Part shown: piece by piece, positions 9,756 to 29,960 of the stretch
Layout: every line of letters begins with the position of its first letter
Position numbering within the stretch: the stretch's first letter is position 1
Origin: Providencia sp. R33
Lineage (GTDB): Bacteria; Pseudomonadota; Gammaproteobacteria; Enterobacterales; Enterobacteriaceae
DNA: 32,000 nucleotides
Reading direction: 5' to 3'
NCBI RefSeq assembly: GCF_019343475.1
Contig: NZ_CP072453.1
Coordinates: 1,411,223 to 1,443,222, forward strand
Program-made: the position numbers and the translations under genes
Notes under the pieces: model-generated
What the model saw: the letters and a program-made list of their open reading frames with translations, nothing else
Database searches by the model: none
Told to the model about the DNA's origin: nothing

Positions 9756-9825
9756 AAAAAGAACCAACACAATTAACCAGCCAGAACGCTGGATTTCTTC
9801 ATTTTATACCTAGGTTCGCATAATG
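9756..9825 (+). repeat. 70-bp direct repeat, copy 1 of 3 (phage right-end sequence plus XerC arm)
   Basis: The sequence aaaaagaaccaacacaattaaccagccagaacgctggatttcttcattttatacctaggttcgcataatg is identical at 9756-9825, 19816-19885 and 29876-29945. Confidence 0.9.
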
Positions 9826-9840
9826 TATAACGCTATGTTA
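9813..9840 (+). other. attL: hybrid dif/attP site (XerC arm GGTTCGCATAA, centre TGTATA, degenerate XerD-side ACGCTATGTTA)
   Basis: The XerC arm and the first 2 central nt are identical to the intact dif at 29933. The sequence diverges from the third central nucleotide onward. Confidence 0.8.
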
Positions 9841-9904
9841 CAAAAGGGTTCTGAGTGATTGCGGTAGAATGGTTTTGGGGTTTACCGCAATCGGGAAGGT
9901 TCGT

Positions 9905-9933
9905 CTTTACACATAGCGTGCATTGTGCGAATC
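9905..9933 (-). other. Inverted second dif-like site (attP2-like)
   Basis: The minus strand reads GATTCGCACAA TGCACG CTATGTGTAAAG, versus dif GGTTCGCATAA TGCATA TTATGTTAAAT. The XerC arm matches 9/11, the centre 4/6 and the XerD arm 7/11. It base-pairs with 9811-9838. Confidence 0.65.
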
Positions 9934-9976
9934 TACTAGGCTAAAATCTGAGAAATCATTAAAGGGTTTTATTAAT

Positions 9977-10243
9977 TCATCTTTTGCCATCATTTAACTC
10001 TTTTTTATTAGATAATTCTATTACTGTATTAAAAAGATAATCATCTGCTACATCTAAAATAATGCCGATACCTTGATACTCGTCTTCATCACTACCTTTT
10101 AAGATTTCTCCTTCAGCCCCCTCAGTTTTCACAAACTCATAAATATCTTCAATTAAAAATGTAATTAATTCTGCTCTTGATTTTCTATTATTGTTTTTAT
10201 CATTAATTAACCATTTATTAATTTCTAATTTAATTTTATTCAT
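9977..10243 (-). CDS. Hypothetical small acidic cytoplasmic protein (cargo module gene 4)
   Basis: 88 aa. An AAGAGG RBS lies 5 nt upstream of the ATG. It is rich in E/D (GAEGEILKGSDEDEYQG, LDVADDY) and has no hydrophobic segment. I recognise no family. Confidence 0.65.
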   Translation of the reverse strand: MNKIKLEINKWLINDKNNNRKSRAELITFLIEDIYEFVKTEGAEGEILKGSDEDEYQGIGIILDVADDYLFNTVIELSNKKELNDGKR

Positions 10244-10273
10244 GTGACCTCTTATCTTTTCATCTTGTGTTAA

Positions 10274-11026
10274 TCAATCGCCTGCTACTATTTTAATTTC
10301 CCGCATTGGAATATTATTTAACTCAGTAATGTTAAATATATACGTATCATCTTCAAGCTCTTTGTCTTTATTGATTTTTTTAGCAATAAAATAATCATTA
10401 TACTTATTGACTATTACATATGTCATATTATTCTTTTCAATTGAATAAAATACTGATTTAGTTCTTGCACCATATTTACCCAGTGAAGTAATTATTAATG
10501 AAAATATAATTAAAATAAAAAGAATTGCTAACATATCGGTTGACAACCTTGTTTCTCTAACGCTGGATTTTCTATCTACCAACTCTTTTTCAATATTATT
10601 ATTGATGCTCTCAAAAATATTTTTCGATTTCTCTTTGAATGGGAAAGATACAATAACAACTAGCAATGCAAATATCCCTATAGAAATAGCTAAGTATTTA
10701 AAATTCACATTACCATTCAAAAATAAAATCATTAACATGATGATAAATAGGAAAAAATAAGAGAATAGGTTTTTTGCTATTTTACCTATAATACCCAATG
10801 GGTTTATTAAGCTTACAAGCATATCCATTATCCCTGTGATTATGAATATAAACATAAACAACCCAAAGCCCATCTGTAATAAGTTCATTATACTTATGGA
10901 AATAAGGTCTTTTGAATAATTAAAATGGTTTGCATAACCTAATTCAAAAAAATAAGCAGAGCAATAAGAAGCACTTGTTATTATAGCAAGAAGTAGTGTT
11001 TCTTTTTTTAAAATACATTTAATCAT
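10274..11026 (-). CDS. Hypothetical polytopic membrane protein (cargo module gene 3)
   Basis: 250 aa with about 5 long hydrophobic helices (LLLAIITSASYCSAYFF, FGLFMFIFIITGIMDMLVSL, LFSYFFLFIIMLMILFL, LAISIGIFALLVVIVSF, LAILFILIIFSLIITSL). A soluble C-terminus of about 60 aa follows. It is tightly packed with its neighbours. Confidence 0.7.
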   Translation of the reverse strand: MIKCILKKETLLLAIITSASYCSAYFFELGYANHFNYSKDLISISIMNLLQMGFGLFMFIFIITGIMDMLVSLINPLGIIGKIAKNLFSYFFLFIIMLMILFLNGNVNFKYLAISIGIFALLVVIVSFPFKEKSKNIFESINNNIEKELVDRKSSVRETRLSTDMLAILFILIIFSLIITSLGKYGARTKSVFYSIEKNNMTYVIVNKYNDYFIAKKINKDKELEDDTYIFNITELNNIPMREIKIVAGD

Positions 11027-11042
11027 AACATACTCATTTAGC

Positions 11043-11231
11043 TTACAATTTCCATCTTACTAGCGCACAGAAAGCAGTTGCAGCTCCTAAATATAACGTA
11101 TATTTCCATTCAATGGCGTTAACTTTAGATGTGAGTAAAAACATGGCGAACGTTAATACTCCTAAAATTATGGCGGCTTTACCTGCATAATAAGAAATCA
11201 TTGCATTCATATCATCATTAAAATTTGACAT
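11043..11231 (-). CDS. Hypothetical 62-aa two-helix membrane peptide (cargo module gene 2)
   Basis: A GAGG RBS lies 5 nt upstream of the ATG. There are two hydrophobic segments (AAIILGVLTFAMFLL and LYLGAATAFCALV). The stop is 16 nt before the next gene. Confidence 0.6.
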   Translation of the reverse strand: MSNFNDDMNAMISYYAGKAAIILGVLTFAMFLLTSKVNAIEWKYTLYLGAATAFCALVRWKL

Positions 11232-11244
11232 TATAACCTCAAAT

Positions 11245-11278
11245 GTTCGTCTTTACACATAGAGTGAATTTTGTGAAT
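11245..11278 (+). repeat. Degenerate second copy of the attP2-like arm
   Basis: gttcgtctttacacatagagtgaattttgtgaat matches 9899-9932 (gttcgtctttacacatagcgtgcattgtgcgaat) at 30/34 positions, in direct orientation. The first 18 nt are perfect. Confidence 0.8.
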
Positions 11279-11964
11279 TAATTATCTTCATTTTTAAGTG
11301 TCTTAACTTTAAAAATTACAGAGTCACTAGATACGATGTCAGGACTGCCATCCCACGTAATAGAGCCTTTATTTCTATATGTAAATAAGAGTTCTGTTGG
11401 AAATTCATTATCTGATTTAGCAGCCCATAATTCACGAAGATATTTAAGTTTAATCGGTGCATTAGCACTTATTAACGCCATTAAAACCAGTCTATCTTTT
11501 AACGTTGGAAGATTGTTACTATTAATTTTCGAATCAATAACATTGTTAATCGACAGCTCTAATTCTTTGATTTTTTCTTCATTACCATCAATTGCTTTTA
11601 TTTTATTGTCAACCAGTGAAATTATTTCATTTTTCAATGTTTCTTTGACTTTTTCTAATGTATTTTCATCATCATTTTCGTTAATTTCATTAGGTTTTTT
11701 CCAAATATGCTCTCTCATATCTGTCACTGTATCTTTCATCATAGAGAATGTATCCGAATATAACTTATCAAATAGCTTTTCTAATCTTTCAACGTTTGAT
11801 TGAATTTCACTTGCTGCCTTTGTTGTTTCTTTAGCAGCCTCGTTAGACATTTTAAAAAATACGATTGATAGCCAAATCGCACCAACAGCAAGCAGTAAGG
11901 AGGCTATGGATGCAATAAAACTAATAATTTCAAATATACTTTGCATAGTGTTTGTGGTTTCCAT
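11278..11964 (-). CDS. Hypothetical membrane-anchored coiled-coil protein (cargo module gene 1)
   Basis: An N-terminal TM helix (IFEIISFIASIASLLLAVGAIWLSIVFF) is followed by a long charged helical region and a C-terminal globular domain of about 80 aa. I placed the start at the ATG at 11964, whereas the ORF-track start at 11970 is GTG. No convincing RBS is present, so the start is uncertain. Confidence 0.6.
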   Translation of the reverse strand: METTNTMQSIFEIISFIASIASLLLAVGAIWLSIVFFKMSNEAAKETTKAASEIQSNVERLEKLFDKLYSDTFSMMKDTVTDMREHIWKKPNEINENDDENTLEKVKETLKNEIISLVDNKIKAIDGNEEKIKELELSINNVIDSKINSNNLPTLKDRLVLMALISANAPIKLKYLRELWAAKSDNEFPTELLFTYRNKGSITWDGSPDIVSSDSVIFKVKTLKNEDN

Positions 11965-11993
11965 TTTCACAAATGTTACAAGGAATATGAAAA

Positions 11994-12015
11994 CCCCCGT
12001 GCTGTACTACGGGGG
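11994..12015 (-). terminator. Rho-independent terminator after the 77-aa gene
   Basis: The minus strand reads cccccgt-agtacagc-acggggg followed by ttttc. It is a 7-bp GC-rich stem. Confidence 0.55.
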
Positions 12016-12087
12016 TAGTCTCAGGATAACTACAATATTTCAGGCAACTATCTAAAAACAAAACATATTATCATTTCTGTAATTATT

Positions 12088-12321
12088 TTATTTTTTTATG
12101 TCACTTTTGAAAAATAGCTCTCCATTTTCATTTACATCTACATCATGAATTTTGTTCTCTAAGACAAAGTGAACAATATCAGATTCTCTATACACCGCTT
12201 TAAGCCCATTCATAATATTTTTTCTTGTTAAATTATAAGAAATTTCTTTTAAATCAGCGGATTCTGTGTCTTTTAGCCTAACTGTTTTAATCAGTGGTTC
12301 TGTCATATTTTTTTCTCTCAT
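12088..12321 (-). CDS. Small protein divergent from rep; candidate phage repressor (positional analogue of CTXphi RstR), possible ribbon-helix-helix fold
   Basis: 77 aa, transcribed divergently from the replication operon across an operator-like repeat region. The pattern KTVRLKD + TESADLKEISYNL + TRKNIMNGLKAVY fits beta-alpha-alpha. The function is an inference only. Confidence 0.5.
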   Translation of the reverse strand: MREKNMTEPLIKTVRLKDTESADLKEISYNLTRKNIMNGLKAVYRESDIVHFVLENKIHDVDVNENGELFFKSDIKK

Positions 12322-12343
12322 TAGTTGCCTACTCAGATCCTAT

Positions 12344-12433
12344 AACATGTATACATATTTTCAATTACTAGTTGACATGTAATATGTAACAGGTATATCT
12401 TCAAATGAAATATAATTTGTAATATGTATACAT
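12344..12433. promoter_or_regulatory. Divergent control region with repeated operator-like motifs
   Basis: The 10-bp palindrome ATGTATACAT occurs at 12347-12356 and 12424-12433. TGTAATATGTA occurs at 12378-12388 and 12418-12428. TTGACA (12372-12377) is followed 16 bp later by TATATC (12394-12399), and a TATAAT lies at 12411-12416. Confidence 0.5.
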
Positions 12434-12633
12434 GGTATTTTATGAACATTGTCTATTTCGATTTTATAGAAGGGTATGGCATTAACGCTCAAGTCGGTAT
12501 TGAGTGGGATTTTTACCGTTCCTTTGAGGAATTGATTAAAGAGTGTTCAAACTGCTTTCACGATAATTTTATCTTAGCGCCAACCACGGCTATTTCAGGG
12601 AATTTCTTAGGTTACAGGGAGAGCTTGCTATGA
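12424..12633 (+). CDS. Hypothetical 69-aa ORF upstream of rep (coding status uncertain)
   Basis: Its stop overlaps the rep start (ATGA at 12630-12633), suggesting translational coupling. There is no clear RBS, and the start codon sits inside the operator-like palindrome. Confidence 0.3.
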   Translation: MYTWYFMNIVYFDFIEGYGINAQVGIEWDFYRSFEELIKECSNCFHDNFILAPTTAISGNFLGYRESLL

Positions 12634-13769
12634 GTAATCAATCAACTCGCTCTGTTTTTATTGACTATTTAGCTTTTTCCGCACCCATTTCAGTCATGAA
12701 AGATGTTCATACTTTTCAAGAAAAGGGTTTTGAATGGCGTAAATTTCAATATTTACCTTCTTATCGTCATTATCAAACTGAACCACGTTATGCATGTTTG
12801 CCTGAGTTTCAAGGGATCCCCGAGATCCCATCAAACACTATGACCGATGAGCAGTTAAATCAATATGATACTGACTTAATAGAATGCTATTTTTCTCGTT
12901 TAAAAACATGGATAGCTTCTGTTTTTGGCTTAGTTATGGGGCTGCCAAGGGGTAAGGGCGGTTTTGCATATAGTGATTCCGCACTGTTGTATAGTGACCA
13001 AGGTGGCTCAGATCATTGCGGTGTGATTTTTTGGGGAGGTAATAACGATACATTTTATGTTCAAATTTCAGGTTTAGGTTGTGCTCATGTATTTAGTGGA
13101 ACAACACCACAAAAAATTCATAAGTGGTTAAAACACCTTGATATTTTTACATTAAAACGTCTCGACTTAGCAACCGATGATTATGATGGGATTTTTACCT
13201 GTCAAGCGGCATTACGGGATTATCGTTTTGATGCGTTCTATGGTGGAGCAGGTCCCAAACCTAAACTCGATACATCAAATGGCATTGATGCCAATGGATG
13301 TGTGACAAAAGAAATCGTCAATATTGGTTCTCGTCAATCTCGTATTTACTGGCGTATTTACAATAAAGCATTGGAACAAAAGGTTTCGGGTATTTGGTAT
13401 CGTTCAGAGGTCGAGTTAAAAGGGCTTTCAATTGATACATTGCTAAATATCGCAGGAATTTATACTGGGCTATGTGATTATTCTGCTCAAATTAATCCGA
13501 CTGTACCAACTTCTATTCCACCGCTTTTTGTTCGTAAAGCCATTGATTCCATTGAAGCAAAAGTTCGATGGTTACGCAAACAGGCATCAGCAACGCTTGC
13601 TAAAGTTTTTCATTATCATGAAGGTGATATGTTAAAAGTTTTTTCTATGGTTCTTAGGGAAGAACACCTTGAAGATCTAAATGTACGTTTTGATATACCG
13701 CCTATATATCACACTTTATACCAAACTTTAATGAGCGAAAAATTAAAGCTTTCTCAAACACCTTTTTAA
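12630..13769 (+). CDS. Rolling-circle replication initiator, Rep_trans family (RstA-like; functional analogue of Ff gpII)
   Basis: 379 aa with a GGGAGAG RBS. It has Rep_trans-type motifs: FIDYLAFS, HCGVIFWGG..FYVQISGLGC, RLDLATDDYDG and RIYWRIYNK...YRSEVELKG. It is first in the plus-strand operon and shows no resemblance to M13 gpII. Confidence 0.8.
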   Translation: MSNQSTRSVFIDYLAFSAPISVMKDVHTFQEKGFEWRKFQYLPSYRHYQTEPRYACLPEFQGIPEIPSNTMTDEQLNQYDTDLIECYFSRLKTWIASVFGLVMGLPRGKGGFAYSDSALLYSDQGGSDHCGVIFWGGNNDTFYVQISGLGCAHVFSGTTPQKIHKWLKHLDIFTLKRLDLATDDYDGIFTCQAALRDYRFDAFYGGAGPKPKLDTSNGIDANGCVTKEIVNIGSRQSRIYWRIYNKALEQKVSGIWYRSEVELKGLSIDTLLNIAGIYTGLCDYSAQINPTVPTSIPPLFVRKAIDSIEAKVRWLRKQASATLAKVFHYHEGDMLKVFSMVLREEHLEDLNVRFDIPPIYHTLYQTLMSEKLKLSQTPF

Positions 13770-13791
13770 AAATAATTAGGATGAATTTATT

Positions 13792-14067
13792 ATGATTAAA
13801 ATTGAATTAAACGCTGAAGATTGTGCAGTTAAAACAAAAGAAGTCACTTCAACTCGTACAGGTGAAATTTTACATTTCCGTGAGCAAAAAGCCTATATTT
13901 ATAATGGCGGTATTTATCCCAAGCAATTCATGATTGGTCTGGAAAAAGATCAGGCTGCATATCCTGCGGGCTTTTATACATTATCTATAGATTCATATGA
14001 TGTGGGGGATTTTGGTGCATTAAAATTCTCTCGAAATATTAAATTAATCCCCATTGATAAAAAATAA
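13792..14067 (+). CDS. ssDNA-binding protein, homologue of Ff gene V protein
   Basis: 91 aa. MIKIEL... and QAAYPAGFYTLSIDSYDVGDFGALKF...IKLIP align with M13 g5p MIKVEI... and QPAYAPGLYTVHLSSFKVGQFGSLMI...LRLVP. Confidence 0.9.
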   Translation: MIKIELNAEDCAVKTKEVTSTRTGEILHFREQKAYIYNGGIYPKQFMIGLEKDQAAYPAGFYTLSIDSYDVGDFGALKFSRNIKLIPIDKK

Positions 14068-14094
14068 ATTTAATTAATTTTAATAGGAAAGGGC

Positions 14095-14211
14095 ATGTTT
14101 AATTTCGAACCGTCATTACTTTTTGAGTTAAGAGATTTTATTTATGTCGTTTCTGGTTTCATTGTTTTTTTATTGTCATTTATTGCTGGTCGCTTAACCG
14201 CTCCGAGGTAA
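14095..14211 (+). CDS. Minor coat protein, gVII-like (38 aa)
   Basis: Not in the ORF track because it is under 60 aa. An AGGAAAGGG RBS precedes MFNFEPSLLFELRDFIYVVSGFIVFLLSFIAGRLTAPR, a single hydrophobic helix. Position and size match Ff pVII. Confidence 0.6.
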   Translation: MFNFEPSLLFELRDFIYVVSGFIVFLLSFIAGRLTAPR

Positions 14212-14213
14212 TT

Positions 14214-14315
14214 ATGCTTGGATTAATTGCGTTATTTTCATCAATTGTTGCTTCAGGTTTTGCGGCTGGTTATCTCGTCGGTTTTTTTGACCGATTAACT
14301 CGTGAACTATCCTAG
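14214..14315 (+). CDS. Minor coat protein, gIX-like (33 aa)
   Basis: Not in the ORF track. It starts 2 nt after the previous stop and encodes MLGLIALFSSIVASGFAAGYLVGFFDRLTRELS. Position and size match Ff pIX (32 aa). Confidence 0.6.
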   Translation: MLGLIALFSSIVASGFAAGYLVGFFDRLTRELS

Positions 14316-14326
14316 AAAGGTGATTT

Positions 14327-14560
14327 ATGTTTAAAAAAACATTAGCAACAATCATTGTTGCTACCGCGTCCATCGCTTCTCCTGCTGTTTTTGCAGCTGA
14401 AACACCAACGTCAACAGTTCCGCAAGCTGCGCAAGATGCAATTACAGGAGTTGGCAGTACCGCAACGGGCATGATTGATTTGGCGTGGCCTGTTATCGCG
14501 CTTGTTGTCGGTGGTTTCTTAGCCATTAAGATGTTTAAAAAAGTGGCATCAAAAGTCTAA
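14327..14560 (+). CDS. Major coat protein (gVIII homologue)
   Basis: 77 aa. It has a signal peptide ending AVFA|AE, an acidic/neutral N-terminus, a hydrophobic core and a basic C-terminus (IKMFKKVASKV), compared with IKLFKKFTSKAS in M13. An AAAGGTGA RBS is present. Confidence 0.9.
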   Translation: MFKKTLATIIVATASIASPAVFAAETPTSTVPQAAQDAITGVGSTATGMIDLAWPVIALVVGGFLAIKMFKKVASKV

Positions 14561-14589
14561 CGCTATTGACTCAGCGTTATATCCTCTTT

Positions 14590-14612
14590 GGGGCTTCGTG
14601 CCCCATTTTTTT
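14590..14612 (+). terminator. Rho-independent terminator after gVIII
   Basis: ggggc-ttcgt-gcccc followed by attttttt. This is the same location as the strong terminator after gene VIII in Ff phages. Confidence 0.7.
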
Positions 14613-14632
14613 AAATAACAAGGTTTTCAATT

Positions 14633-16369
14633 ATGCGTTTTATTTTCTTTTTATTACTCGGTTTTAGTTTCTATTCTAATGCGGTAATTAAAACGTATAA
14701 TGTGACATTATCTGATACCAATTATAAAGTCTCTCAATATGACCCTAATACGGGTTTTTGGTCTTCATCATTTACTCTTGAATATCCGCTTCAAACTTAT
14801 CAAGCGAGTGATTGTTTTCTTGAACGTAGTTTTTCTATTGCTCCGAGAACGATTGCCGAAAAATATATTAAACTACCGAATAGAAACCCAAATGCATCTC
14901 CGCCATCATTATCGGTTAAATTTAATCCAAAGGTAAAATGTACAGTTGATTGGGTTGAGGATAAACCAAAATATTCATTAACCGATAAAGCCAATTCAGC
15001 GATATTAACGATAACTTATCGCGCTTTTTATTGCCCTAATGAATCTGCTTATTCTTACAATAATTTAGATAAAAAAGAAGGATGTCCCTCTATTGAGCAT
15101 GGTAGCTTGGAAGAATATTGTTTAAAACAACCCACGTTATATAACACTACAGTTAAAAACCCAACGCATGATGGTAAAGATTATATATTTAATAATGCAG
15201 AAAATGGCTGTAAATACTTTTCAGTTGGTTCCGTTATATTAAAACAAGAAAATCCACTTCGTATTACAAGTGATTGGGCAACAATTGGAGTCGCTGATTT
15301 AGATACTGGTGATAGCGAAATTATCGAAAATGATAATGGTAATGATGGTGGTAACGGCAGTGAAGGTGGTAACGGCAGTGAAGGTGGTAACGGCAGCGAA
15401 GGTGGTAACGGCAGCGAAGGTGGTAACGGCAGTGAAGGTGGTAACGGCAGTGAAGGTGGTAACGGCAGCGAAGGTGGTAACGGCAGCGAAGGTGGTAACG
15501 GCAGCGAAGGTGGTAACGGCAGCGAAGGTGGTAACGGCAGCGAAGGTGGTAACGGCAGCGAAGGTGGTAACGGCAGCGAAGGTGGTAACGGCAACGAAGG
15601 CGGTAATGGAGGCGGGAGTGCGTCAGGTGAATATGCCGGTATTTTAAACTCAATTCGTACAGATACACAAAGTATCAGTAAAACCACATCATCCATGGAT
15701 AAAAACCTGAATTCCATCAAAGATAAAGCATCATCGATAGACGATAGGCTCGCTAATATTGATGGAAACGTTGCAAAGATTGAGCGTTATTTACGCCCAG
15801 AAGAACACTCTTTTTCCGAATGGCTGAATTCTTTTGATACCACTTACAGCACCTATTTTAGCCCCTCGATTAAAGAGCCTAATTCAATATTTAATGCCGA
15901 ATTTGGGTATCGCAATGACAATGAGTTTTCACTGTATGGGGATATCGCCTCCAATATGCAAGGAGATGCGTTTGTCAGGTCATTTTCAAATATCTATCGA
16001 GAACAATTGTCAGGTTTAACTTCCCACTTACCAAGCAATTTACAACTGTCTTCGATTGCCAATCAATTAGACGGTTCGATTCGTTCTGATACGATTGATT
16101 TTAGAGACGATTTTAAAGCTTATGGGACATTTACCTCAATTTTTGGAGTGGGTGATTTAGTCAAATCCATTTATCAAGTTTTGCCCAAGTATAAAGAATG
16201 CACTCCGATTATCTTATTTGGTGGGTATCCTTATGAGTTTTCTATTTCTTGCGAATACATAAATAAAATCAAAGACTTTCTTTATTACGTCTTTTTCTTT
16301 TTTACATTGTGGTTCACGTTCACGAAATTAATGCATTCAATTTCAGCAACGCCCGCAAAAGAAAGTTAA
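14633..16369 (+). CDS. Adsorption/minor coat protein (gIII homologue)
   Basis: 578 aa. It has the signal peptide MRFIFFLLLGFSFYSNA, a Cys-containing N-terminal region and a long (GGNGSE)n linker. The C-terminus GYPYEFSISCEYINKIKDFLYYVFFFFTLWFTFTKLMH...KES resembles M13 g3p GKPYEFSIDCDKINLFRGVFAFLLYVATFMYVFSTFANILRNKES. Confidence 0.9.
   Translation: MRFIFFLLLGFSFYSNAVIKTYNVTLSDTNYKVSQYDPNTGFWSSSFTLEYPLQTYQASDCFLERSFSIAPRTIAEKYIKLPNRNPNASPPSLSVKFNPKVKCTVDWVEDKPKYSLTDKANSAILTITYRAFYCPNESAYSYNNLDKKEGCPSIEHGSLEEYCLKQPTLYNTTVKNPTHDGKDYIFNNAENGCKYFSVGSVILKQENPLRITSDWATIGVADLDTGDSEIIENDNGNDGGNGSEGGNGSEGGNGSEGGNGSEGGNGSEGGNGSEGGNGSEGGNGSEGGNGSEGGNGSEGGNGSEGGNGSEGGNGSEGGNGNEGGNGGGSASGEYAGILNSIRTDTQSISKTTSSMDKNLNSIKDKASSIDDRLANIDGNVAKIERYLRPEEHSFSEWLNSFDTTYSTYFSPSIKEPNSIFNAEFGYRNDNEFSLYGDIASNMQGDAFVRSFSNIYREQLSGLTSHLPSNLQLSSIANQLDGSIRSDTIDFRDDFKAYGTFTSIFGVGDLVKSIYQVLPKYKECTPIILFGGYPYEFSISCEYINKIKDFLYYVFFFFTLWFTFTKLMHSISATPAKES
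15347..15598 (+). repeat. 14 x 18-bp in-frame tandem repeat (ggtggtaacggcagYgaa) encoding the GGNGSE linker of pIII
   Basis: I counted units from 15347. There are thirteen GGNGSE units and then one GGNGNE unit. Units differ only at the synonymous agt/agc position. Confidence 0.9.
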
Positions 16370-23829: not shown

Positions 23830-23851
23830 AAATAATTAGGATGAATTTATT

Positions 23852-24127: not shown

Positions 24128-24154
24128 ATTTAATTAATTTTAATAGGAAAGGGC

Positions 24155-24271: not shown

Positions 24272-24273
24272 TT

Positions 24274-24375: not shown

Positions 24376-24386
24376 AAAGGTGATTT

Positions 24387-24620
24387 ATGTTTAAAAAAAC
24401 ATTAGCAACAATCATTGTTGCTACCGCGTCCATCGCTTCTCCTGCTGTTTTTGCAGCTGAAACACCAACGTCAACAGTTCCGCAAGCTGCGCAAGATGCA
24501 ATTACAGGAGTTGGCAGTACCGCAACGGGCATGATTGATTTGGCGTGGCCTGTTATCGCGCTTGTTGTCGGTGGTTTCTTAGCCATTAAGATGTTTAAAA
24601 AAGTGGCATCAAAAGTCTAA
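24387..24620 (+). CDS. Major coat protein (gVIII homologue), copy 2
   Basis: Identical to 14327-14560. Confidence 0.9.
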   Translation: MFKKTLATIIVATASIASPAVFAAETPTSTVPQAAQDAITGVGSTATGMIDLAWPVIALVVGGFLAIKMFKKVASKV

Positions 24621-24649
24621 CGCTATTGACTCAGCGTTATATCCTCTTT

Positions 24650-24672
24650 GGGGCTTCGTGCCCCATTTTTTT
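24650..24672 (+). terminator. Terminator after gVIII, copy 2
   Basis: Identical to 14590-14612. Confidence 0.7.
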
Positions 24673-24692
24673 AAATAACAAGGTTTTCAATT

Positions 24693-26429
24693 ATGCGTTT
24701 TATTTTCTTTTTATTACTCGGTTTTAGTTTCTATTCTAATGCGGTAATTAAAACGTATAATGTGACATTATCTGATACCAATTATAAAGTCTCTCAATAT
24801 GACCCTAATACGGGTTTTTGGTCTTCATCATTTACTCTTGAATATCCGCTTCAAACTTATCAAGCGAGTGATTGTTTTCTTGAACGTAGTTTTTCTATTG
24901 CTCCGAGAACGATTGCCGAAAAATATATTAAACTACCGAATAGAAACCCAAATGCATCTCCGCCATCATTATCGGTTAAATTTAATCCAAAGGTAAAATG
25001 TACAGTTGATTGGGTTGAGGATAAACCAAAATATTCATTAACCGATAAAGCCAATTCAGCGATATTAACGATAACTTATCGCGCTTTTTATTGCCCTAAT
25101 GAATCTGCTTATTCTTACAATAATTTAGATAAAAAAGAAGGATGTCCCTCTATTGAGCATGGTAGCTTGGAAGAATATTGTTTAAAACAACCCACGTTAT
25201 ATAACACTACAGTTAAAAACCCAACGCATGATGGTAAAGATTATATATTTAATAATGCAGAAAATGGCTGTAAATACTTTTCAGTTGGTTCCGTTATATT
25301 AAAACAAGAAAATCCACTTCGTATTACAAGTGATTGGGCAACAATTGGAGTCGCTGATTTAGATACTGGTGATAGCGAAATTATCGAAAATGATAATGGT
25401 AATGATGGTGGTAACGGCAGTGAAGGTGGTAACGGCAGTGAAGGTGGTAACGGCAGCGAAGGTGGTAACGGCAGCGAAGGTGGTAACGGCAGTGAAGGTG
25501 GTAACGGCAGTGAAGGTGGTAACGGCAGCGAAGGTGGTAACGGCAGCGAAGGTGGTAACGGCAGCGAAGGTGGTAACGGCAGCGAAGGTGGTAACGGCAG
25601 CGAAGGTGGTAACGGCAGCGAAGGTGGTAACGGCAGCGAAGGTGGTAACGGCAACGAAGGCGGTAATGGAGGCGGGAGTGCGTCAGGTGAATATGCCGGT
25701 ATTTTAAACTCAATTCGTACAGATACACAAAGTATCAGTAAAACCACATCATCCATGGATAAAAACCTGAATTCCATCAAAGATAAAGCATCATCGATAG
25801 ACGATAGGCTCGCTAATATTGATGGAAACGTTGCAAAGATTGAGCGTTATTTACGCCCAGAAGAACACTCTTTTTCCGAATGGCTGAATTCTTTTGATAC
25901 CACTTACAGCACCTATTTTAGCCCCTCGATTAAAGAGCCTAATTCAATATTTAATGCCGAATTTGGGTATCGCAATGACAATGAGTTTTCACTGTATGGG
26001 GATATCGCCTCCAATATGCAAGGAGATGCGTTTGTCAGGTCATTTTCAAATATCTATCGAGAACAATTGTCAGGTTTAACTTCCCACTTACCAAGCAATT
26101 TACAACTGTCTTCGATTGCCAATCAATTAGACGGTTCGATTCGTTCTGATACGATTGATTTTAGAGACGATTTTAAAGCTTATGGGACATTTACCTCAAT
26201 TTTTGGAGTGGGTGATTTAGTCAAATCCATTTATCAAGTTTTGCCCAAGTATAAAGAATGCACTCCGATTATCTTATTTGGTGGGTATCCTTATGAGTTT
26301 TCTATTTCTTGCGAATACATAAATAAAATCAAAGACTTTCTTTATTACGTCTTTTTCTTTTTTACATTGTGGTTCACGTTCACGAAATTAATGCATTCAA
26401 TTTCAGCAACGCCCGCAAAAGAAAGTTAA
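24693..26429 (+). CDS. Adsorption protein (gIII homologue), copy 2
   Basis: Identical to 14633-16369, including the repeat number. Confidence 0.9.
   Translation: MRFIFFLLLGFSFYSNAVIKTYNVTLSDTNYKVSQYDPNTGFWSSSFTLEYPLQTYQASDCFLERSFSIAPRTIAEKYIKLPNRNPNASPPSLSVKFNPKVKCTVDWVEDKPKYSLTDKANSAILTITYRAFYCPNESAYSYNNLDKKEGCPSIEHGSLEEYCLKQPTLYNTTVKNPTHDGKDYIFNNAENGCKYFSVGSVILKQENPLRITSDWATIGVADLDTGDSEIIENDNGNDGGNGSEGGNGSEGGNGSEGGNGSEGGNGSEGGNGSEGGNGSEGGNGSEGGNGSEGGNGSEGGNGSEGGNGSEGGNGSEGGNGNEGGNGGGSASGEYAGILNSIRTDTQSISKTTSSMDKNLNSIKDKASSIDDRLANIDGNVAKIERYLRPEEHSFSEWLNSFDTTYSTYFSPSIKEPNSIFNAEFGYRNDNEFSLYGDIASNMQGDAFVRSFSNIYREQLSGLTSHLPSNLQLSSIANQLDGSIRSDTIDFRDDFKAYGTFTSIFGVGDLVKSIYQVLPKYKECTPIILFGGYPYEFSISCEYINKIKDFLYYVFFFFTLWFTFTKLMHSISATPAKES
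25407..25658 (+). repeat. 14 x 18-bp in-frame tandem repeat in gIII, copy 2
   Basis: Identical to 15347-15598. Confidence 0.9.
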
Positions 26430-26447
26430 TACCAAAAGGAGCGCATT

Positions 26448-26786
26448 ATGCCGTTATTACTGGCTTGGTTACCTGCACTGATTACATGGTTGTTTAATGC
26501 ATGGCGTATTTACGTTGCAGCTTCTTTTTTATGGAAAATCATTAAATATATTGCAGGTGTCATTATTACCTATGCTGTAGTGAACTATGTTTTTGGTGGA
26601 TTTATCTCGGCACTCATTAATTGGGTCTCAACTTCATTAACGTATATTTCCCCGTTTATTGATGCCTTTTCGTTATTTTTACCCTCAAATTTTGAAACCT
26701 GCGTTTATATCATCATTTCAGATTACGTTCTTGCCATGGTTTTGTCATGGAAACATCGTATTGCAACGGCATTAGGAGCGATTTAA
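26448..26786 (+). CDS. gVI homologue, copy 2
   Basis: Identical to 16388-16726. Confidence 0.85.
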   Translation: MPLLLAWLPALITWLFNAWRIYVAASFLWKIIKYIAGVIITYAVVNYVFGGFISALINWVSTSLTYISPFIDAFSLFLPSNFETCVYIIISDYVLAMVLSWKHRIATALGAI

Positions 26787-26948
26787 GTGGATTTTACTGT
26801 GTGGGACGTTATGGCATTTGCGTTCTCAATGTTTCTTTTATCTTATATAAGGTGATGTTATGTCTATCATCCCGTTTATACCGACACGCCTTGAATATTA
26901 CTATGGTCATTTAACGCATTCATATGCTTATTCACTTTAGGAGGGGAA

Positions 26949-27980
26949 ATGGCGGTCTATTTTGTCACGGGTAAACTCGGTTCAGGAAAAACACTCTCAG
27001 CCGTGTATAAAATCCGCGATTACTTAATGAATGGGCGTAAGGTGGCGACAAACTTAAATATCTCGTTAACAGGGATGTTTGGTTATCACGCCAAAAATAT
27101 TAATCTGGTACGTATTCCTGATAAACCCAATATCATTGATTTAGAGTCAATTGGGCGCGGTAATTCTACTTACGATGAGTCACTCAATGGCTTACTGGTC
27201 TTGGACGAATGCGGAACATGGTTTAACTCGCGTTCTTGGGCAGATAAGAGCCGACAGGAGTTAATCAATTGGTTTGCACATGCGCGAAAGCTCGGCTGGG
27301 ATATTCTTTTCCTTGTGCAAAGTCTTCATGTTGTCGATAAACAGAGTCGATTGATGTTTGCGGAACACGTGGTGTATTGCCGTCGTGCTGACCGTTTAAA
27401 AATCCCCTATATTCATTGGTTATTGCAATTAGTGACATTAGGGCATTTTCAACTCCCGAAAATCCACATGGCTATCGTGAAATACGGGGATTCACCGACT
27501 GCATTAGTCACTGACCGTTGGTTTTACCAAGGTGGGCCTTTGTATTCCGCTTATGACACCAAACAGCAATTTTCTGATTTCTATGCGCATGGGGCATTTT
27601 GTGTTTTGCCTCCGCATTACTACGTCTTAAAACGCACAAAAATTAATGTGAGCTTTTTTATGCGCTTAACAAAAATCTATTTCAAACGCTCTAAACGACT
27701 CAGCTTAATTCTTTTGGGAATATTCCTGTGCCTTTCAGGGCAATTTTTTTATCACAAGTATTGGCCATCAACGTCAGAAACACCCATCTTGCCACTTTCT
27801 GACGTTTTTATTGATTCTTACGTGAAGCACGGTAATCAGACTCAATACCGATTTTCAACACCAAATGGCATTTTATCTGAAGACGATTTAACAAATGCAG
27901 GCATAAAAATTTCGCAGGTATCGCCCTGTAAAGTGTCATTAAATTTAAATGGGGTTTCACATGAAGTCACATGTAAATAG
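26949..27980 (+). CDS. Assembly ATPase (gI/Zot homologue), copy 2
   Basis: Identical to 16889-17920. Confidence 0.92.
   Translation: MAVYFVTGKLGSGKTLSAVYKIRDYLMNGRKVATNLNISLTGMFGYHAKNINLVRIPDKPNIIDLESIGRGNSTYDESLNGLLVLDECGTWFNSRSWADKSRQELINWFAHARKLGWDILFLVQSLHVVDKQSRLMFAEHVVYCRRADRLKIPYIHWLLQLVTLGHFQLPKIHMAIVKYGDSPTALVTDRWFYQGGPLYSAYDTKQQFSDFYAHGAFCVLPPHYYVLKRTKINVSFFMRLTKIYFKRSKRLSLILLGIFLCLSGQFFYHKYWPSTSETPILPLSDVFIDSYVKHGNQTQYRFSTPNGILSEDDLTNAGIKISQVSPCKVSLNLNGVSHEVTCK
27660..27980 (+). CDS. pXI-like internal product of gI, copy 2
   Basis: Identical to 17600-17920. Confidence 0.45.
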   Translation: MRLTKIYFKRSKRLSLILLGIFLCLSGQFFYHKYWPSTSETPILPLSDVFIDSYVKHGNQTQYRFSTPNGILSEDDLTNAGIKISQVSPCKVSLNLNGVSHEVTCK

Positions 27981-29289
27981 CTTGATAGGGGCGTTCTTAT
28001 TGTGGTGCTCCTGCGCACACGCTCAATTACTAGAAATGAATAATGCGCCCATGACGGAGTTTGTGAATTGGTATTCGCAGCTATCAGGAAAGGGCGTTGT
28101 TTTACCCAGCAATTTTGATGGGCGAATTACCATTTATAATTCGGATGTGGACGCCTCTAATATTGATGCTTTTTTTATTTCAGTCCTGGCTTCTCGTGGT
28201 TATGAAGTTGTGTCTGGGAGTCCACTGATTATTAAAGCGAACCCGACTATTGATGTGAAACAAACGCGCCTTAATATGACACCGCTTGAAAGTAATGATG
28301 ATTCCAACAGCTTAGATTATCAAGATAATGGCTCATCACTGGACAATTTATTAGATTATCCAGTTCAATCCGCACCTAAGTTTTTGGAGATGGAAACACG
28401 CACCTTTAAATTTCAGCGTATTACGGCTAAATCTGCCTTACCCGTTGTCGATATCTATTTAAAATCATTACCCACATCAGGTTCACACGTCGTGCTCGAT
28501 GCGGCTTCCAATTCACTGATTGTGACGACCGTTAAAGGCAACTTTGATAATATTGGCTCCTTTATTCGTGATATTGACGTGAAAACAGAACAAGTTCTGA
28601 TTGAAGCGATTATGTTCGAGGTTGGCAAAGGTTCATCGTTTGATTTTTCATTTGCAGCAGGTAAGCGTTCAGATTCAAACATTGTTGGGGGTATCAATAC
28701 CACCTCATTATCCGACTCTCTGACCTCCAAGGGAGCGGCATTTGGCATATTCTCAGGCAACATATTATCGTTGGCATTAACAGCTGTAGAAGGCGCTCAG
28801 GACTCAAAAATTTTGTCTGTACCCCGTATTTTAACCTTATCAGGCTCTGAGGGCTTTATCTCTTCAGGCCAAAACGTGCCGATTGTGACAGGAAAACTGG
28901 TTGGAGAGGGCGTTGACGCCAAAAATCCGTTCCAAACCATCACGCGCCGTGATGTAGGAATTAACTTACGGGTTACGCCTATCGTACTGGGTGACGGTTC
29001 GATTATGTTAGATTTATCGTCTAATTCCGGCTCAATTTCTAATGTTACCGCAGCTTCCGATATCATTTTAAACGAACGCACCATTAAGACGACCGTTCAG
29101 CTTAAAGATGGTGATACATTGCTTATTGGTGGGTTAATTCAACATAACGCGATTAATCAAAAAGACTCAACACCTATTGCGTCTTCTATCCCGTTAATTG
29201 GTTGGATGTTTGATTCCACCTCAGAATCTGAAACTGAAAACACCATGTATATTTTGATTAGAGCTCGGATTGTTTCGCCTTTATCCTAA
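27961..29289 (+). CDS. Secretin (gIV homologue), copy 2
   Basis: Identical to 17901-19229. Confidence 0.92.
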   Translation: MKSHVNSLIGAFLLWCSCAHAQLLEMNNAPMTEFVNWYSQLSGKGVVLPSNFDGRITIYNSDVDASNIDAFFISVLASRGYEVVSGSPLIIKANPTIDVKQTRLNMTPLESNDDSNSLDYQDNGSSLDNLLDYPVQSAPKFLEMETRTFKFQRITAKSALPVVDIYLKSLPTSGSHVVLDAASNSLIVTTVKGNFDNIGSFIRDIDVKTEQVLIEAIMFEVGKGSSFDFSFAAGKRSDSNIVGGINTTSLSDSLTSKGAAFGIFSGNILSLALTAVEGAQDSKILSVPRILTLSGSEGFISSGQNVPIVTGKLVGEGVDAKNPFQTITRRDVGINLRVTPIVLGDGSIMLDLSSNSGSISNVTAASDIILNERTIKTTVQLKDGDTLLIGGLIQHNAINQKDSTPIASSIPLIGWMFDSTSESETENTMYILIRARIVSPLS

Positions 29290-29338
29290 TTTTTTATTAC
29301 GTTACATTCTAATTATTTATCAATCTCTCTTTTAATCA

Positions 29339-29400
29339 GAACCCTGTTAGCGATGTTCGCTCACTGCGAGAGCGGGGGGCGGATATCGCTAATGGGGTTT
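29339..29400 (+). other. Intergenic GC-rich hairpin (candidate packaging signal or origin), copy 2
   Basis: Identical to 19279-19340. Confidence 0.4.
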
Positions 29401-29579
29401 CTATTAACAGTCATTTTATTTATGAATATAGCTTTTGTGATTATATCAGAATAAAGTTTCTTTATATGCCGTTAGGCATGTAAGGCGACACGCTAAAATT
29501 TCAGAAATACCCAAAGCTCGCTCGCCGATAAAACGGGCGGGCTTTTTTGAAAAACACGAAACCGCGCTTGCGCCACTGG

Positions 29580-29608
29580 TTGACAGGATTTTAATTGTTC
29601 GATCTAAT
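29580..29608 (+). promoter_or_regulatory. Candidate promoter for the 72-aa ORF, copy 2
   Basis: Identical to 19520-19548. Confidence 0.35.
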
Positions 29609-29677
29609 AGCAACTCAACAGTTTTATGGTCGAAGACGAAAGAATCTTTCAGCGATAATTTATAGGGAATGAATTAA

Positions 29678-29896
29678 ATGAAGACTGTTTGGATTGATGA
29701 AGAATCTTTTTTGCAAATGGCTAAAATTGGCTGGATTGACTATAGCAATGCACGTTTAGATAACAATAAGTTGCTTGGTATCGAATTACCGCCAAGACGC
29801 AAAAATGGCAATAATACGCATTTCAAAATGACGTTAACCGATGTAACAAGGTTCATTAATGACTATAACGAAGCCAAAAAGAACCAACACAATTAA
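29678..29896 (+). CDS. Hypothetical 72-aa att-adjacent protein, copy 2
   Basis: Identical to 19618-19836. Confidence 0.55.
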   Translation: MKTVWIDEESFLQMAKIGWIDYSNARLDNNKLLGIELPPRRKNGNNTHFKMTLTDVTRFINDYNEAKKNQHN

Positions 29897-29945
29897 CCAG
29901 CCAGAACGCTGGATTTCTTCATTTTATACCTAGGTTCGCATAATG
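29876..29945 (+). repeat. 70-bp direct repeat, copy 3 of 3
   Basis: Identical to 9756-9825. Identity stops after ...cataatg. Confidence 0.9.
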
Positions 29946-29960
29946 CATATTATGTTAAAT
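29933..29960 (+). other. dif: Chromosomal dif site (XerC arm, 6-bp centre, XerD arm), regenerated at the right prophage junction
   Basis: GGTTCGCATAA TGCATA TTATGTTAAAT matches E. coli dif GGTGCGCATAA TGTATA TTATGTTAAAT at 26/28 positions. Confidence 0.85.

What the first reader, a model, noticed from the sequence alone, without database searches (positions are those of the whole stretch)
9756..29960. Two identical 10,060-bp filamentous prophage copies in head-to-tail tandem at the chromosomal dif site
Every ORF between 9977 and 19836 recurs with an identical translation exactly 10,060 bp downstream. The intergenic lines I spot-checked (9841 vs 19901, 19261 vs 29321) are also identical. The array is bounded on the left by a hybrid dif-like site (9813-9840) and on the right by an intact dif (29933-29960). 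An identical hybrid site sits at the internal junction (19873-19900). No integrase, transposase or recombinase ORF exists in the unit, so host XerCD is the implied recombinase. For CTXphi-type elements, integration is irreversible and regenerates dif. Tandem copies are then the template from which the Rep protein spools out unit-length ssDNA, so a tandem array here has functional meaning and is not just a curiosity.
Basis: partly seen in the sequence, partly recalled or inferred. Interest (0 to 1): 0.75.

Follow-up and report, generated by a model that had tools for sequence, protein, structure and literature searches.

The report
Tandem filamentous prophage at chromosomal dif
Two identical 10-kb copies of a filamentous (M13/CTX-like) phage sit head-to-tail at the chromosome's dimer-resolution site of a Providencia strain. 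This arrangement is real but already well known from cholera, plague and E. coli phages.

Summary
Window 9756-19885 equals 19816-29945 with no mismatch, which makes two 10,060-bp units plus 70 bp. The unit is a complete inovirus: an RstA-like Rep, pV, g8, g3, g6, pI/Zot and its own pIV secretin. It has no recombinase. The array ends in a perfect dif site (29933-29960), identical to the dif of a prophage-free relative.

I add five points.
- The host is Providencia sp. R33.
- A second, inverted dif-like site lies about 95 nt from the junction site. The two fold into a strong (+)-strand hairpin that is conserved, with compensatory changes, in Providencia relatives and has the same architecture in Photorhabdus and E. 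coli CUS-1-like phages. This is the defining feature of CTX-type single-stranded integration.
- The 57 bp left of the array are a phage-tail scar, and the empty site carries it too. The array is therefore flanked by 70-bp direct repeats.
- Other genomes carry arrays of non-identical copies of this phage family, so such arrays are real.
- The AT-rich four-gene cargo sits in a position that varies between relatives.

I could not test whether the exact two-copy number is an assembly artefact.

The parts
9756..9812 (+). 57-bp scar. This chromosomal flank is identical to the last 57 bp of the phage: the tail of orf72 (last 6 codons plus the stop) and the spacer before the XerC arm.
   Evidence: It is identical to 19816-19872 and 29876-29932. 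It is present unchanged in the prophage-free site L015 and in L010. In phage relatives the homology continues upstream into orf72, but in the chromosome it stops at 9756.
9813..9843 (+). attL: XerC arm GGTTCGCATAA + 9-nt centre TGTATAACG + XerD-like arm CTATGTTACAA
   Evidence: It matches dif through the XerC arm plus TG and is phage-specific after that.
9906..9933 (-). Inverted second dif-like site (attP2-like) of copy 1: GATTCGCACAA TGCACG CTATGTGTAAA
   Evidence: equivalent position in the junction copy.
9824..19883 (+). Prophage copy 1 (10,060 bp), delimited at the predicted XerC cleavage position
9977..10243 (-). Cargo c88, an acidic 88-aa protein (phrog_37184, unknown function). Copy 2: 20037-20303.
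   Evidence: It is shared with L003/L004 at 92%.
10274..11026 (-). Cargo c250, a multi-pass membrane protein with GC 26%. Copy 2: 20334-21086.
   Evidence: No phage-database homologue.
11043..11231 (-). Cargo c62, a small membrane protein. Copy 2: 21103-21291.
11278..11970 (-). Cargo c230: an N-terminal TM helix, a long coiled coil and a C-terminal winged helix (phrog_36054). Copy 2: 21338-22030.
12088..12321 (-). orf77 (phrog_5642), divergent from the rep operon in the position of rstR. It is a putative repressor by position only. Copy 2: 22148-22381.
   Evidence: No Pfam or PDB match.
12424..12633 (+). orf69 (phrog_3104), which overlaps the rep start. Copy 2: 22484-22693.
12630..13769 (+). 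Rolling-circle replication initiator (Rep_trans), RstA-like. Copy 2: 22690-23829.
   Evidence: PF02486 at 1.8e-19 and phrog_453 at 1.7e-92. It is 34-36% identical to Vibrio phage Rep/RstA.
13792..14067 (+). pV ssDNA-binding protein. Copy 2: 23852-24127.
   Evidence: PF02303 at 5.6e-20.
14095..14315 (+). Two small hydrophobic ORFs (38 and 33 aa) in the g7/g9 position
   Evidence: A G7P gene sits at the same position in the CUS-1-like prophage.
14327..14560 (+). g8 major coat protein. Copy 2: 24387-24620.
   Evidence: PF19199 at 1.8e-18.
14633..16369 (+). g3-like attachment protein with a (GGNGSE)n linker, encoded by an 18-bp x 14.4 repeat at 15347-15606. Copy 2: 24693-26429.
16388..16726 (+). 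g6-like minor coat protein. Copy 2: 26448-26786.
   Evidence: phrog_1944.
16889..17920 (+). pI/Zot assembly ATPase. Copy 2: 26949-27980.
   Evidence: PF05707 at 3e-34 and phrog_1675 at 7.6e-133. It is 46% identical to the CUS-1-like Zot.
17889..19229 (+). pIV secretin. Copy 2: 27949-29289.
   Evidence: PF00263 at 1.8e-38 and phrog_1012 at 2.7e-110. It is 40% identical to the CUS-1-like secretin.
19618..19836 (+). orf72, a conserved small gene restricted to Providencia that ends 36 bp before the XerC arm. Function unknown. Copy 2: 29678-29896.
19873..19995 (+). Internal junction, equal to the intact phage attP region. It holds site 1 (19873-19903), a distal stem-loop and inverted site 2 (19966-19993), which together form the predicted attP(+) hairpin.
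   Evidence: DNA fold of -25 to -30 kcal/mol, z = -6.5 to -6.9. Conservation and 2 compensatory pairs. The chromosomal dif control does not fold, z = -0.7 and -0.2.
19884..29943 (+). Prophage copy 2 (10,060 bp), identical to copy 1
29933..29960 (+). attR, the regenerated functional dif: GGTTCGCATAA TGCATA TTATGTTAAAT
   Evidence: It is identical to the empty-site dif.

Best explanation
The region is a two-copy, head-to-tail array of a 10,060-nt temperate inovirus in the chromosome of Providencia sp. R33. The phage has no recombinase of its own and is integrated at dif, between roxA and a VF530-family gene.

Inferred mechanism:
- The packaged (+) strand folds its two inverted dif-like sites into a forked hairpin that mimics dif.
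- Host XerCD binds the hairpin. XerC exchanges one strand pair next to the shared GGTTCGCATAA-TG, and replication completes integration.
- This leaves a non-canonical site (9-nt spacer) on the left and an exact dif on the right.
- A second integration into the regenerated dif produced the tandem. Unequal exchange between the 70-bp flanking repeats would give the same product.
- Progeny (+) strands are then made either by the RstA-like Rep nicking the origin in the upstream copy and terminating at the downstream copy, or after RecA-mediated pop-out of a monomer circle.
- pV coats the DNA, and pI with the phage's own pIV secretin extrudes virions built of g8, g3, g6 and the g7/g9-like proteins.
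- An AT-rich four-gene cargo next to attL occupies a hypervariable slot and is probably a lysogenic-conversion or exclusion module.

Shown here: the sequence structure, the gene content, the empty site, the predicted hairpin and its conservation, and the absence of a recombinase. Inferred: Xer dependence, single-stranded DNA as the substrate, Rep-driven production from the array, and the cargo's function.
For: - Exact 10,130-bp self-identity at offset 10,060.
- A complete inovirus gene set with strong family matches, and no recombinase anywhere in the unit.
- The host is identified by exact protein matches, and both copies are annotated in the deposited complete 4.75-Mb chromosome.
- The empty site L015 shows roxA, 57 bp, the identical dif and VF530. 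Identity between attL or the junction and dif breaks exactly after the XerC arm plus TG.
- The inverted site and hairpin have z = -6.9. The chromosomal dif control has z = -0.7 and -0.2. The hairpin is kept in four Providencia phages with two GC-to-CG compensatory pairs.
- The same XerC-stem, bulge, XerD-stem and distal-stem architecture appears with different sequence in Photorhabdus (z = -6.7) and in the E. coli CUS-1-like prophage (z = -7.5).
- The phage core genes lie on the same strand as the dif top strand (XerC arm to XerD arm), as I expect (+)-strand integration to require.
- Rep is 34% identical to CTXphi RstA.
- Arrays of two non-identical copies occur in Providencia L001 (88-93% identity between copies) and in Photorhabdus temperata L020. 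These cannot be assembly artefacts.
- Literature: the CTX class is defined by an attP(+) of about 150 nt, XerC-only exchange, irreversibility and production by rolling-circle replication, and Ypfphi and CUS-1phi are listed as members (PMC4246890 Table 2; PMC3089051). Ypfphi forms arrays of 2-4 copies, most often 2 (PMC4266046).
Against: - The two copies are 100% identical, so the sequence alone cannot prove a copy number of exactly two. Reads were not available.
- Site 1 is also a fully paired duplex site with a perfect XerC arm and an 8/11 XerD-like arm, so double-stranded (VGJ-like) recombination is not excluded.
- The 70-bp identity with the chromosome would allow RecA-mediated Campbell integration to give the same product.
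- Covariation in the hairpin rests on only four close relatives (two compensatory pairs), plus separately folded distant ones.
- No origin or nick site was identified.
- No evidence of virion production exists.
Confidence: 0.72

Rival explanations
1. The exact tandem is an assembly artefact or a miscount. The strain carries one integrated copy plus circular replicative form, or three or more copies, and the assembler rendered this as two perfect copies.
For: The two copies are identical at all 10,060 positions, so nothing in the sequence anchors the copy number. In short-read assemblies of relatives, contigs break at the phage ends. L002 starts with 77 nt of the phage tail, and L003 is a unit-length contig with the XerC arm at both ends. 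The literature notes that copy number is often unresolved (PMC7307601).
Against: The source is a deposited complete 4.75-Mb chromosome in which both copies are annotated. Related genomes hold arrays of non-identical copies that cannot be artefacts. Two-copy arrays are the commonest state for Ypfphi and for Vibrio IMEX arrays (PMC4266046, PMC12715192).
Confidence: 0.15
2. The array is real, but integration and array formation use double-stranded DNA. Either XerC recombines the duplex site 1 with dif (VGJ-type, reversible), or RecA recombines the 70-bp segment shared by phage and chromosome. The duplication then arose by unequal sister-chromatid exchange between the 70-bp flanking repeats.
For: Site 1 has a perfect XerC arm and an 8/11 XerD-like arm in duplex form. 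The 70 bp are identical in phage and empty site, so a Campbell crossover or unequal exchange would give exactly the observed structure, [70]-unit-[70]-unit-[70]. For Ypfphi, homologous recombination has been proposed as a source of copy-number change (PMC4266046).
Against: Selection clearly maintains the inverted second site and the whole hairpin across Providencia, Photorhabdus and E. coli phages while the sequence diverges. A duplex-only attP does not explain this. The 9-nt spacer of duplex site 1 is longer than the 6-nt dif spacer. No XafV- or XafT-like activator was detected.
Confidence: 0.2
3. The array is a domesticated or cryptic prophage that no longer makes virions and is retained for its AT-rich cargo.
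For: Nothing here shows production. The cargo occupies a hypervariable slot of the kind linked to host-beneficial genes in Vibrio inoviruses (PMC12715192), and degraded arrays exist in a relative (L032).
Against: All phage ORFs are intact in both copies. An identical Rep occurs with different cargo in many strains and metagenomes, which indicates an actively spreading phage. The attP hairpin is intact at the junction.
Confidence: 0.12

Closest known systems
CTXphi of Vibrio cholerae (CTX-type IMEX)
   Same: It has no recombinase and integrates at dif, regenerating dif on the right. Two inverted dif-like sites about 90 nt apart fold into a roughly 150-nt (+)-strand hairpin, and the crossover lies at the XerC side with 2-3 nt of homology. 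Rep is RstA-family (34% identity). It forms tandem arrays (PMC3089051, PMC4246890).
   Different: The Providencia phage encodes its own pIV secretin; as far as I know, CTXphi has none. It has a classical pV in the position of RstB. It has no ctxAB, and its cargo lies next to attL on the opposite strand. The host is an Enterobacterales member. No nucleotide similarity was found.
Ypfphi (Yersinia pestis) and CUS-1phi (E. coli O18:K1:H7)
   Same: The overall architecture matches the CUS-1-like prophage of E. coli UM146: attL, reverse-strand accessory ORFs, Rep, ssDNA-binding protein, g7, g8, g3, g6, Zot, secretin, small ORFs, then dif. pI is 46% and pIV 40% identical. The attL design is homologous and the hairpin comparable. 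Both have variable ORFs next to attL and unknown small ORFs next to attR, and Ypfphi forms tandem arrays of 2-4 copies (PMC4266046).
   Different: The replication protein is unrelated (annotated as 'II/X family' there, Rep_trans/RstA-like here; no BLASTP match). The cargo, orf72, orf77 and orf69 have no counterpart. The morphogenesis module is therefore shared and the replication module is of the Vibrio type, making the phage a mosaic.
UPphi phages of Enterobacterales
   Same: They are dif-integrated inoviruses found as tandem doubles or triples, some with identical copies, and they carry accessory ORFs of unknown function and a variable Gly-rich g3 repeat (PMC7307601).
   Different: UPphi phages are relatives of IKe/I2-2 (Lineavirus). 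Providencia is not mentioned anywhere in that paper.
Vibrio 'CTX-I' inoviruses with hypervariable regions
   Same: They have a variable cargo slot enriched in anti-phage genes and frequently form IMEX arrays, most often of two units (PMC12715192).
   Different: In those phages the variable region lies between zot and xafT. Here the occupied slot lies between attP and the repressor-like gene. A second slot between gIV and orf72 is filled only in relatives. No XafT homologue was detected.

Membership tests
Inovirus (filamentous ssDNA phage) | Rolling-circle Rep, pV-type ssDNA-binding protein, g8 major coat protein and pI/Zot assembly ATPase in one small co-oriented module | tested here: met
   PF02486, PF02303, PF19199 and PF05707 all score far above their curated cut-offs, and the PHROG matches agree. 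The unit is 10,060 nt.
IMEX (integrative mobile element exploiting Xer) | Inserted at the chromosomal dif, with a functional dif regenerated at one border | tested here: met
   The empty site L015 has one dif identical to 29933-29960. The window carries the insertion immediately to its left.
IMEX (integrative mobile element exploiting Xer) | No self-encoded recombinase | tested here: met
   No integrase, resolvase or DDE family matched any sense or antisense ORF. The largest gap without an assigned gene is 388 bp.
IMEX (integrative mobile element exploiting Xer) | Integration depends on host XerC/XerD | not testable with these tools
   This needs xerC/xerD mutants or an in vitro recombination assay.
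CTX-type IMEX | Two dif-like sites in inverted orientation about 90 nt apart that fold into a forked hairpin, attP(+), of about 150 nt (PMC3089051) | tested here: met
   Site 1 is at 19873-19903 and site 2 at 19966-19993 on the minus strand. The fold gives -29.7 kcal/mol and z = -6.9, is conserved with 2 compensatory pairs, and the dif control does not fold.
CTX-type IMEX | Crossover at the XerC cleavage side, stabilised by a few shared central-region bases | tested here: met
   attL, the junction and dif are identical through GGTTCGCATAA+TG and diverge at the third central base.
CTX-type IMEX | Single-stranded (+) DNA is the recombination substrate and the integration cannot be reversed by Xer | not testable with these tools
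   Indirect support only: the prophage polarity matches the dif top strand, and duplex site 1 has a 9-nt spacer.
CTX-type IMEX | Progeny made by Rep-driven rolling-circle replication across tandem prophages | not testable with these tools
   A tandem and an RstA-like Rep are present. No origin was mapped and there are no expression or ssDNA data.
VGJ-type / TLC-type IMEX | A short duplex attP suffices, and a Xer activation factor (XafV or XafT) is encoded next to attP (bioRxiv 10.64898/2026.06.12.731946) | tested here: inconclusive
   orf72 occupies the attP-adjacent position. It has no Pfam match, and its AlphaFold2 model (pLDDT 83) has no significant PDB neighbour (best E = 1.6; weak MerR/excisionase-like hits). 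No XafT or XafV sequence was available for a direct comparison.
Ypfphi/CUS-1phi lineage | Homologous replication, structural and assembly genes throughout | tested here: not met
   g8, g3 (C-terminus), g6, pI and pIV are homologous at 25-46% identity. Rep, the ssDNA-binding protein, the regulators and the accessory ORFs give no BLASTP match.

The most novel reading that the evidence does not exclude
orf72 is a conserved 72-aa gene restricted to Providencia. It ends 36 bp before the XerC arm, the position that XafT and XafV hold in Vibrio IMEXs. It could be a new, unrelated Xer-activation or recombination-directionality factor acting on a CTX-type hairpin attP. Together with the 70-bp scar repeats, it would make a supposedly irreversible CTX-type integration efficient or reversible.
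Probability: 0.12. Interest if true: 0.5.

Novelty: new member of a known kind. Interest (0 to 1): 0.2.

Why it matters
This adds a curated example of a CTX-type, Xer-exploiting inovirus in Providencia, a genus for which my literature searches found no described filamentous phage. It shows a mosaic: a Vibrio-type RstA replication module joined to a Ypf/CUS-1-type morphogenesis and secretin module. It documents that the dif flank of this Providencia lineage is itself a phage scar, which makes every new lysogen flanked by 70-bp repeats. It also points to an AT-rich cargo slot whose genes, for example a membrane-anchored winged-helix protein also found alone in P2-like phages, are candidates for exclusion or defence functions. 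None of this changes the current understanding of IMEX biology.

Tried and rejected
- A megablast of the whole unit against 50,697 phage records found nothing.
- The exact-protein look-up for the 398-aa roxA ORF failed, apparently because the annotated start differs.
- KOPS (GGGNAGGG) polarity as an independent terminus marker gave 0 sites in the window and is uninformative.
- GC skew over 32 kb is not informative for the terminus.
- PADLOC gave only weak coiled-coil-type hits for the cargo (PD-T4-6 at 1.3e-4, 19 bits), which I rejected as spurious.
- Pfam, PDB sequence and Foldseek searches did not assign orf72, orf77 or c230 to any known family.
- I considered that the 57-bp identity meant the phage had captured host DNA. 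I rejected this because relatives in other hosts carry the same tail, with homology continuing into orf72, while the chromosome holds only the truncated end.
- I considered a tRNA- or integrase-type att site for the 70-bp repeat. I rejected this because there is no integrase and the repeat ends inside dif.
- Two papers on P2 and P4 defence hotspots did not document the locus between the tail-fibre and sheath genes. The link of c230 to the P2 Z/fun position therefore rests on my own knowledge.

Full report
**1. The observation**

Comparing the window with itself at an offset of 10,060 gives one unbroken run of identity. Positions 9756-19885 equal 19816-29945, a run of 10,130 bp with no mismatch. 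The repeated block therefore spans 9756-29945 and consists of two complete 10,060-bp units plus a third copy of the first 70 bp. All ORFs between 9977 and 19836 recur at +10,060.

The right end carries GGTTCGCATAATGCATATTATGTTAAAT at 29933-29960. This is the only match to a dif consensus in the window, with none expected by chance. The left border (9813 onward) and the internal junction (19873 onward) both read GGTTCGCATAATG|TATAACGCTATGTTACAA. They share the XerC arm plus the first two central bases with dif and then become phage-specific.

**2. What the unit is**

The plus-strand block 12424-19229 encodes a complete inovirus gene set:
- a Rep_trans rolling-circle initiator (PF02486, 1.8e-19; phrog_453, 1.7e-92);
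- a pV helix-destabilising protein (PF02303);
- two small hydrophobic ORFs in the g7/g9 position;
- a g8 major coat protein (PF19199);
- a g3-like protein, whose linker is an 18-bp x 14.4 repeat encoding (GGNGSE)n;
- a g6-like protein;
- pI/Zot (PF05707; phrog_1675, 7.6e-133);
- a pIV secretin (PF00263; phrog_1012, 2.7e-110).

A 77-aa gene (phrog_5642) lies divergent from the rep operon, where rstR lies in CTXphi. A 72-aa gene (orf72) ends 36 bp before the XerC arm.

Four minus-strand ORFs of 88, 250, 62 and 230 aa at 9977-11970 have 28% G+C, against 39% for both the phage core and the left flank. They have no Pfam or PADLOC assignment.

No sense or antisense ORF matches an integrase, resolvase or transposase, and the largest gap without an assigned gene is 388 bp.

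**3. Host and site**

Exact-sequence look-ups place the window in the complete 4,748,309-bp chromosome of Providencia sp. R33. Both copies are annotated there, for example as J6836_06615 and J6836_06685.

A contig that carries the identical VF530 protein but no phage (L015) shows roxA, a 382-bp spacer and then VF530. The identical dif sequence lies in that spacer. This is the empty site, and it shows that the phage lies immediately to the left of dif and regenerates it exactly. The neighbouring genes (ydfG, a DUF1283 gene, mlc, a bioD paralogue) are, from my knowledge of E. coli, terminus-region genes. KOPS and GC skew gave no usable signal over 32 kb.

**4. The 57-bp scar**

The empty site, and a third genome (L010), carry the same 57 bp to the left of dif that end the phage: AAAAAGAACC...TATACCTA.

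In related phages from other Providencia genomes this segment is present with a few substitutions. There, homology continues upstream into the orf72 homologue. In the chromosome, homology stops abruptly at 9756. The chromosome therefore holds a truncated phage tail, and not the reverse.

Three consequences follow:
- attL cannot be distinguished from the phage attP.
- The XerC arm of this lineage's dif (GGTTCGCATAA, with T where E. coli and the Photorhabdus dif have G) is probably phage-derived. I expect this because, in the CTX-type model, each integration replaces that arm.
- Any lysogen is flanked by 70-bp direct repeats. These would allow RecA-dependent clean loss, giving exactly the L015 structure, or unequal exchange that generates a duplication.

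**5. Integration class**

The defining feature of that class is a pair of inverted dif-like sites about 90 nt apart. They fold into a roughly 150-nt hairpin on the (+) strand, and XerC alone exchanges strands with it. The reaction is irreversible, and progeny come from rolling-circle replication (PMC3089051; PMC4246890, Table 2, which lists Ypfphi and CUS-1phi as members).

The inverted site exists here. Site 1 is GGTTCGCATAA TGTATAACG CTATGTTACAA (19873-19903). Site 2, on the minus strand at 19966-19993, is GATTCGCACAA TGCACG CTATGTGTAAA.

The (+) strand 19861-20010 folds into a long hairpin: a XerC-arm stem, a 3-nt bulge, a XerD-arm stem and a distal stem-loop. Its energy is -29.7 kcal/mol and z = -6.9, and none of 200 shuffles folds as well. 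The same length of sequence starting at the chromosomal dif does not fold (z = -0.7 and -0.2).

The hairpin is conserved in four Providencia phages, with two GC-to-CG compensatory pairs in the distal stem. The same architecture with different sequence is found next to attL of a Photorhabdus temperata relative (z = -6.7). It is also found in the CUS-1-like prophage of E. coli UM146 (z = -7.5).

Two further observations fit. The crossover interval is the XerC side, since identity ends after TG. The phage coding strand is the strand on which dif reads from XerC arm to XerD arm. Both are what I expect (+)-strand integration to require. Rep is 34-36% identical to CTXphi RstA and other Vibrio inovirus Reps.

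I conclude that the CTX-type assignment is well supported by sequence. Xer dependence, single-stranded DNA as the substrate and irreversibility remain untested.

**6. Is the tandem real?**

The sequence cannot decide this, because the copies are identical. The support is indirect:
- L001, a Providencia genome with the identical Rep, has two copies that are only 88-93% identical to each other and are joined by the same junction.
- L020, Photorhabdus temperata, has two different inoviruses in tandem.
- Ypfphi forms arrays of 2-4 copies, with two predominant (PMC4266046).
- UPphi phages form identical doubles and triples (PMC7307601).
- Two-unit arrays are the commonest in Vibrio (PMC12715192).

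I put the chance of an artefact or a wrong copy number at about 15%.

**7. Relatives and mosaicism**

There is no nucleotide match in the phage collection. The closest representative genomes by Rep are two Photorhabdus species, at 71%.

Against the CUS-1-like prophage the gene order is the same, and pI, pIV, g8, g6 and the g3 C-terminus are 25-46% identical. Rep, the DNA-binding protein, the regulators and the accessory genes are unrelated. The phage therefore combines a Vibrio-type replication module with a Ypf/CUS-1-type morphogenesis module that includes a secretin.

**8. Cargo**

Genomes with the identical Rep carry different genes at the attL side (TfpB-like, P63C, TIR_2). They also carry extra genes (a 305-aa ORF and Hcp) between gIV and the orf72 homologue. 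The four ORFs here therefore occupy a hypervariable slot, as described for Vibrio inoviruses (PMC12715192).

c230 belongs to a widespread uncharacterised family with 464 hits. Its AlphaFold2 model (pLDDT 76) shows a TM helix, a long coiled coil and a C-terminal winged helix. Foldseek gives only marginal hits, best E = 0.04.

c230 is 51.5% identical to a lone reverse-strand gene between the tail-fibre assembly and sheath genes of P2-like coliphages. From my own knowledge, that is the position of P2's AT-rich conversion gene Z/fun. Homologues also sit at prophage edges in other genomes. A conversion or exclusion role is plausible but unproven.

**9. orf72**

orf72 is conserved, and the search found homologues only in Providencia. 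It abuts attP, as XafT and XafV do in Vibrio IMEXs (bioRxiv 10.64898/2026.06.12.731946). Its model (pLDDT 83) has no significant structural neighbour. The best hits (E = 1.6 and weaker) include several MerR- or excisionase-like winged helices, and there is no Pfam match. A Xer-accessory role is a lead and not a finding.

**10. Verdict**

The phenomenon is a textbook one for dif-integrating inoviruses, so this is a new member of a known kind and of low interest. The scar, the module mosaic and the cargo are modest additions.

Noticed in passing
L010:4656-9841 (GCA_028617055.1; same roxA-dif-VF530 locus): A 5.19-kb transposon-like element is inserted exactly between the 57-bp phage scar and the XerC arm of dif. 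It has imperfect terminal inverted repeats (TGTCAAGGCTCG... / ...CGAGCCTCTACA), a repeated subterminal motif and a 5-bp ACCTA duplication. It carries a 753-aa nSTAND3 NTPase, a 367-aa unknown protein and a 466-aa HTH plus weak rve_3 transposase. A similar HTH protein sits directly upstream of VF530 in L013 and L014, so the insertion may be recurrent or site-specific next to dif.
   Followed up: partly
window 11278-11970 (and 21338-22030), minus strand: Cargo protein c230 belongs to a widespread orphan family (464 database hits) built from a TM helix, a coiled coil and a C-terminal winged helix. A 51.5%-identical gene sits alone, on the reverse strand, between the tail-fibre assembly and sheath genes of P2-like coliphages, and homologues sit at prophage edges in other genomes.
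   Followed up: partly
window 15347-15606 (and 25407-25666): An 18-bp tandem repeat of 14.4 copies (97% matches) encodes the (GGNGSE)n linker of the g3-like protein. The g3-like protein differs in length in relatives (536, 554 and 578 aa).
   Followed up: partly
window 9699-9726: AATGCGCATAT CGAAGG TAATGAAATAT lies about 100 bp left of attL and loosely resembles a decayed dif (XerC arm 8/11, XerD arm about 7/11). It could be the ancestral attL of an older integration. It is not significant on its own.
   Followed up: no
L001:1-14111; L020:9020-20322; L032:7600-11215: Other genomes hold arrays of this phage family at dif. L001 has two Providencia copies 88-93% identical to each other. L020 (Photorhabdus temperata) has two different inoviruses. 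L032 (Providencia sp. Me31A) has a degraded array with only the hairpin, orf69, the first 56 codons of rep and the phage tail left next to dif.
   Followed up: partly
L001-L006 (loci with the identical Rep): Relatives with a 100%-identical Rep carry different accessory genes in two slots. On the attL side these are a TfpB-like protein plus a 114-aa ORF, P63C or a TIR_2 protein. Between gIV and the orf72 homologue they are a 305-aa ORF plus a T6SS Hcp.
   Followed up: no
L033:3582-3740 and 11956-11995 (E. coli UM146 CUS-1-like prophage): As far as the N-masked bases allow, the bases left of attL read like those left of the regenerated dif (..TT.CCATT before GGTGCGCATAATG). This suggests a flank identity similar to the Providencia scar.
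   Followed up: no
window 6500-8000: The left flank has a low-GC stretch (32-33% against about 39%) that contains small ORFs (114 aa on the minus strand, a 103-aa cupin-like ORF and an 81-aa DUF2543 ORF). It is unrelated to the prophage.
   Followed up: no
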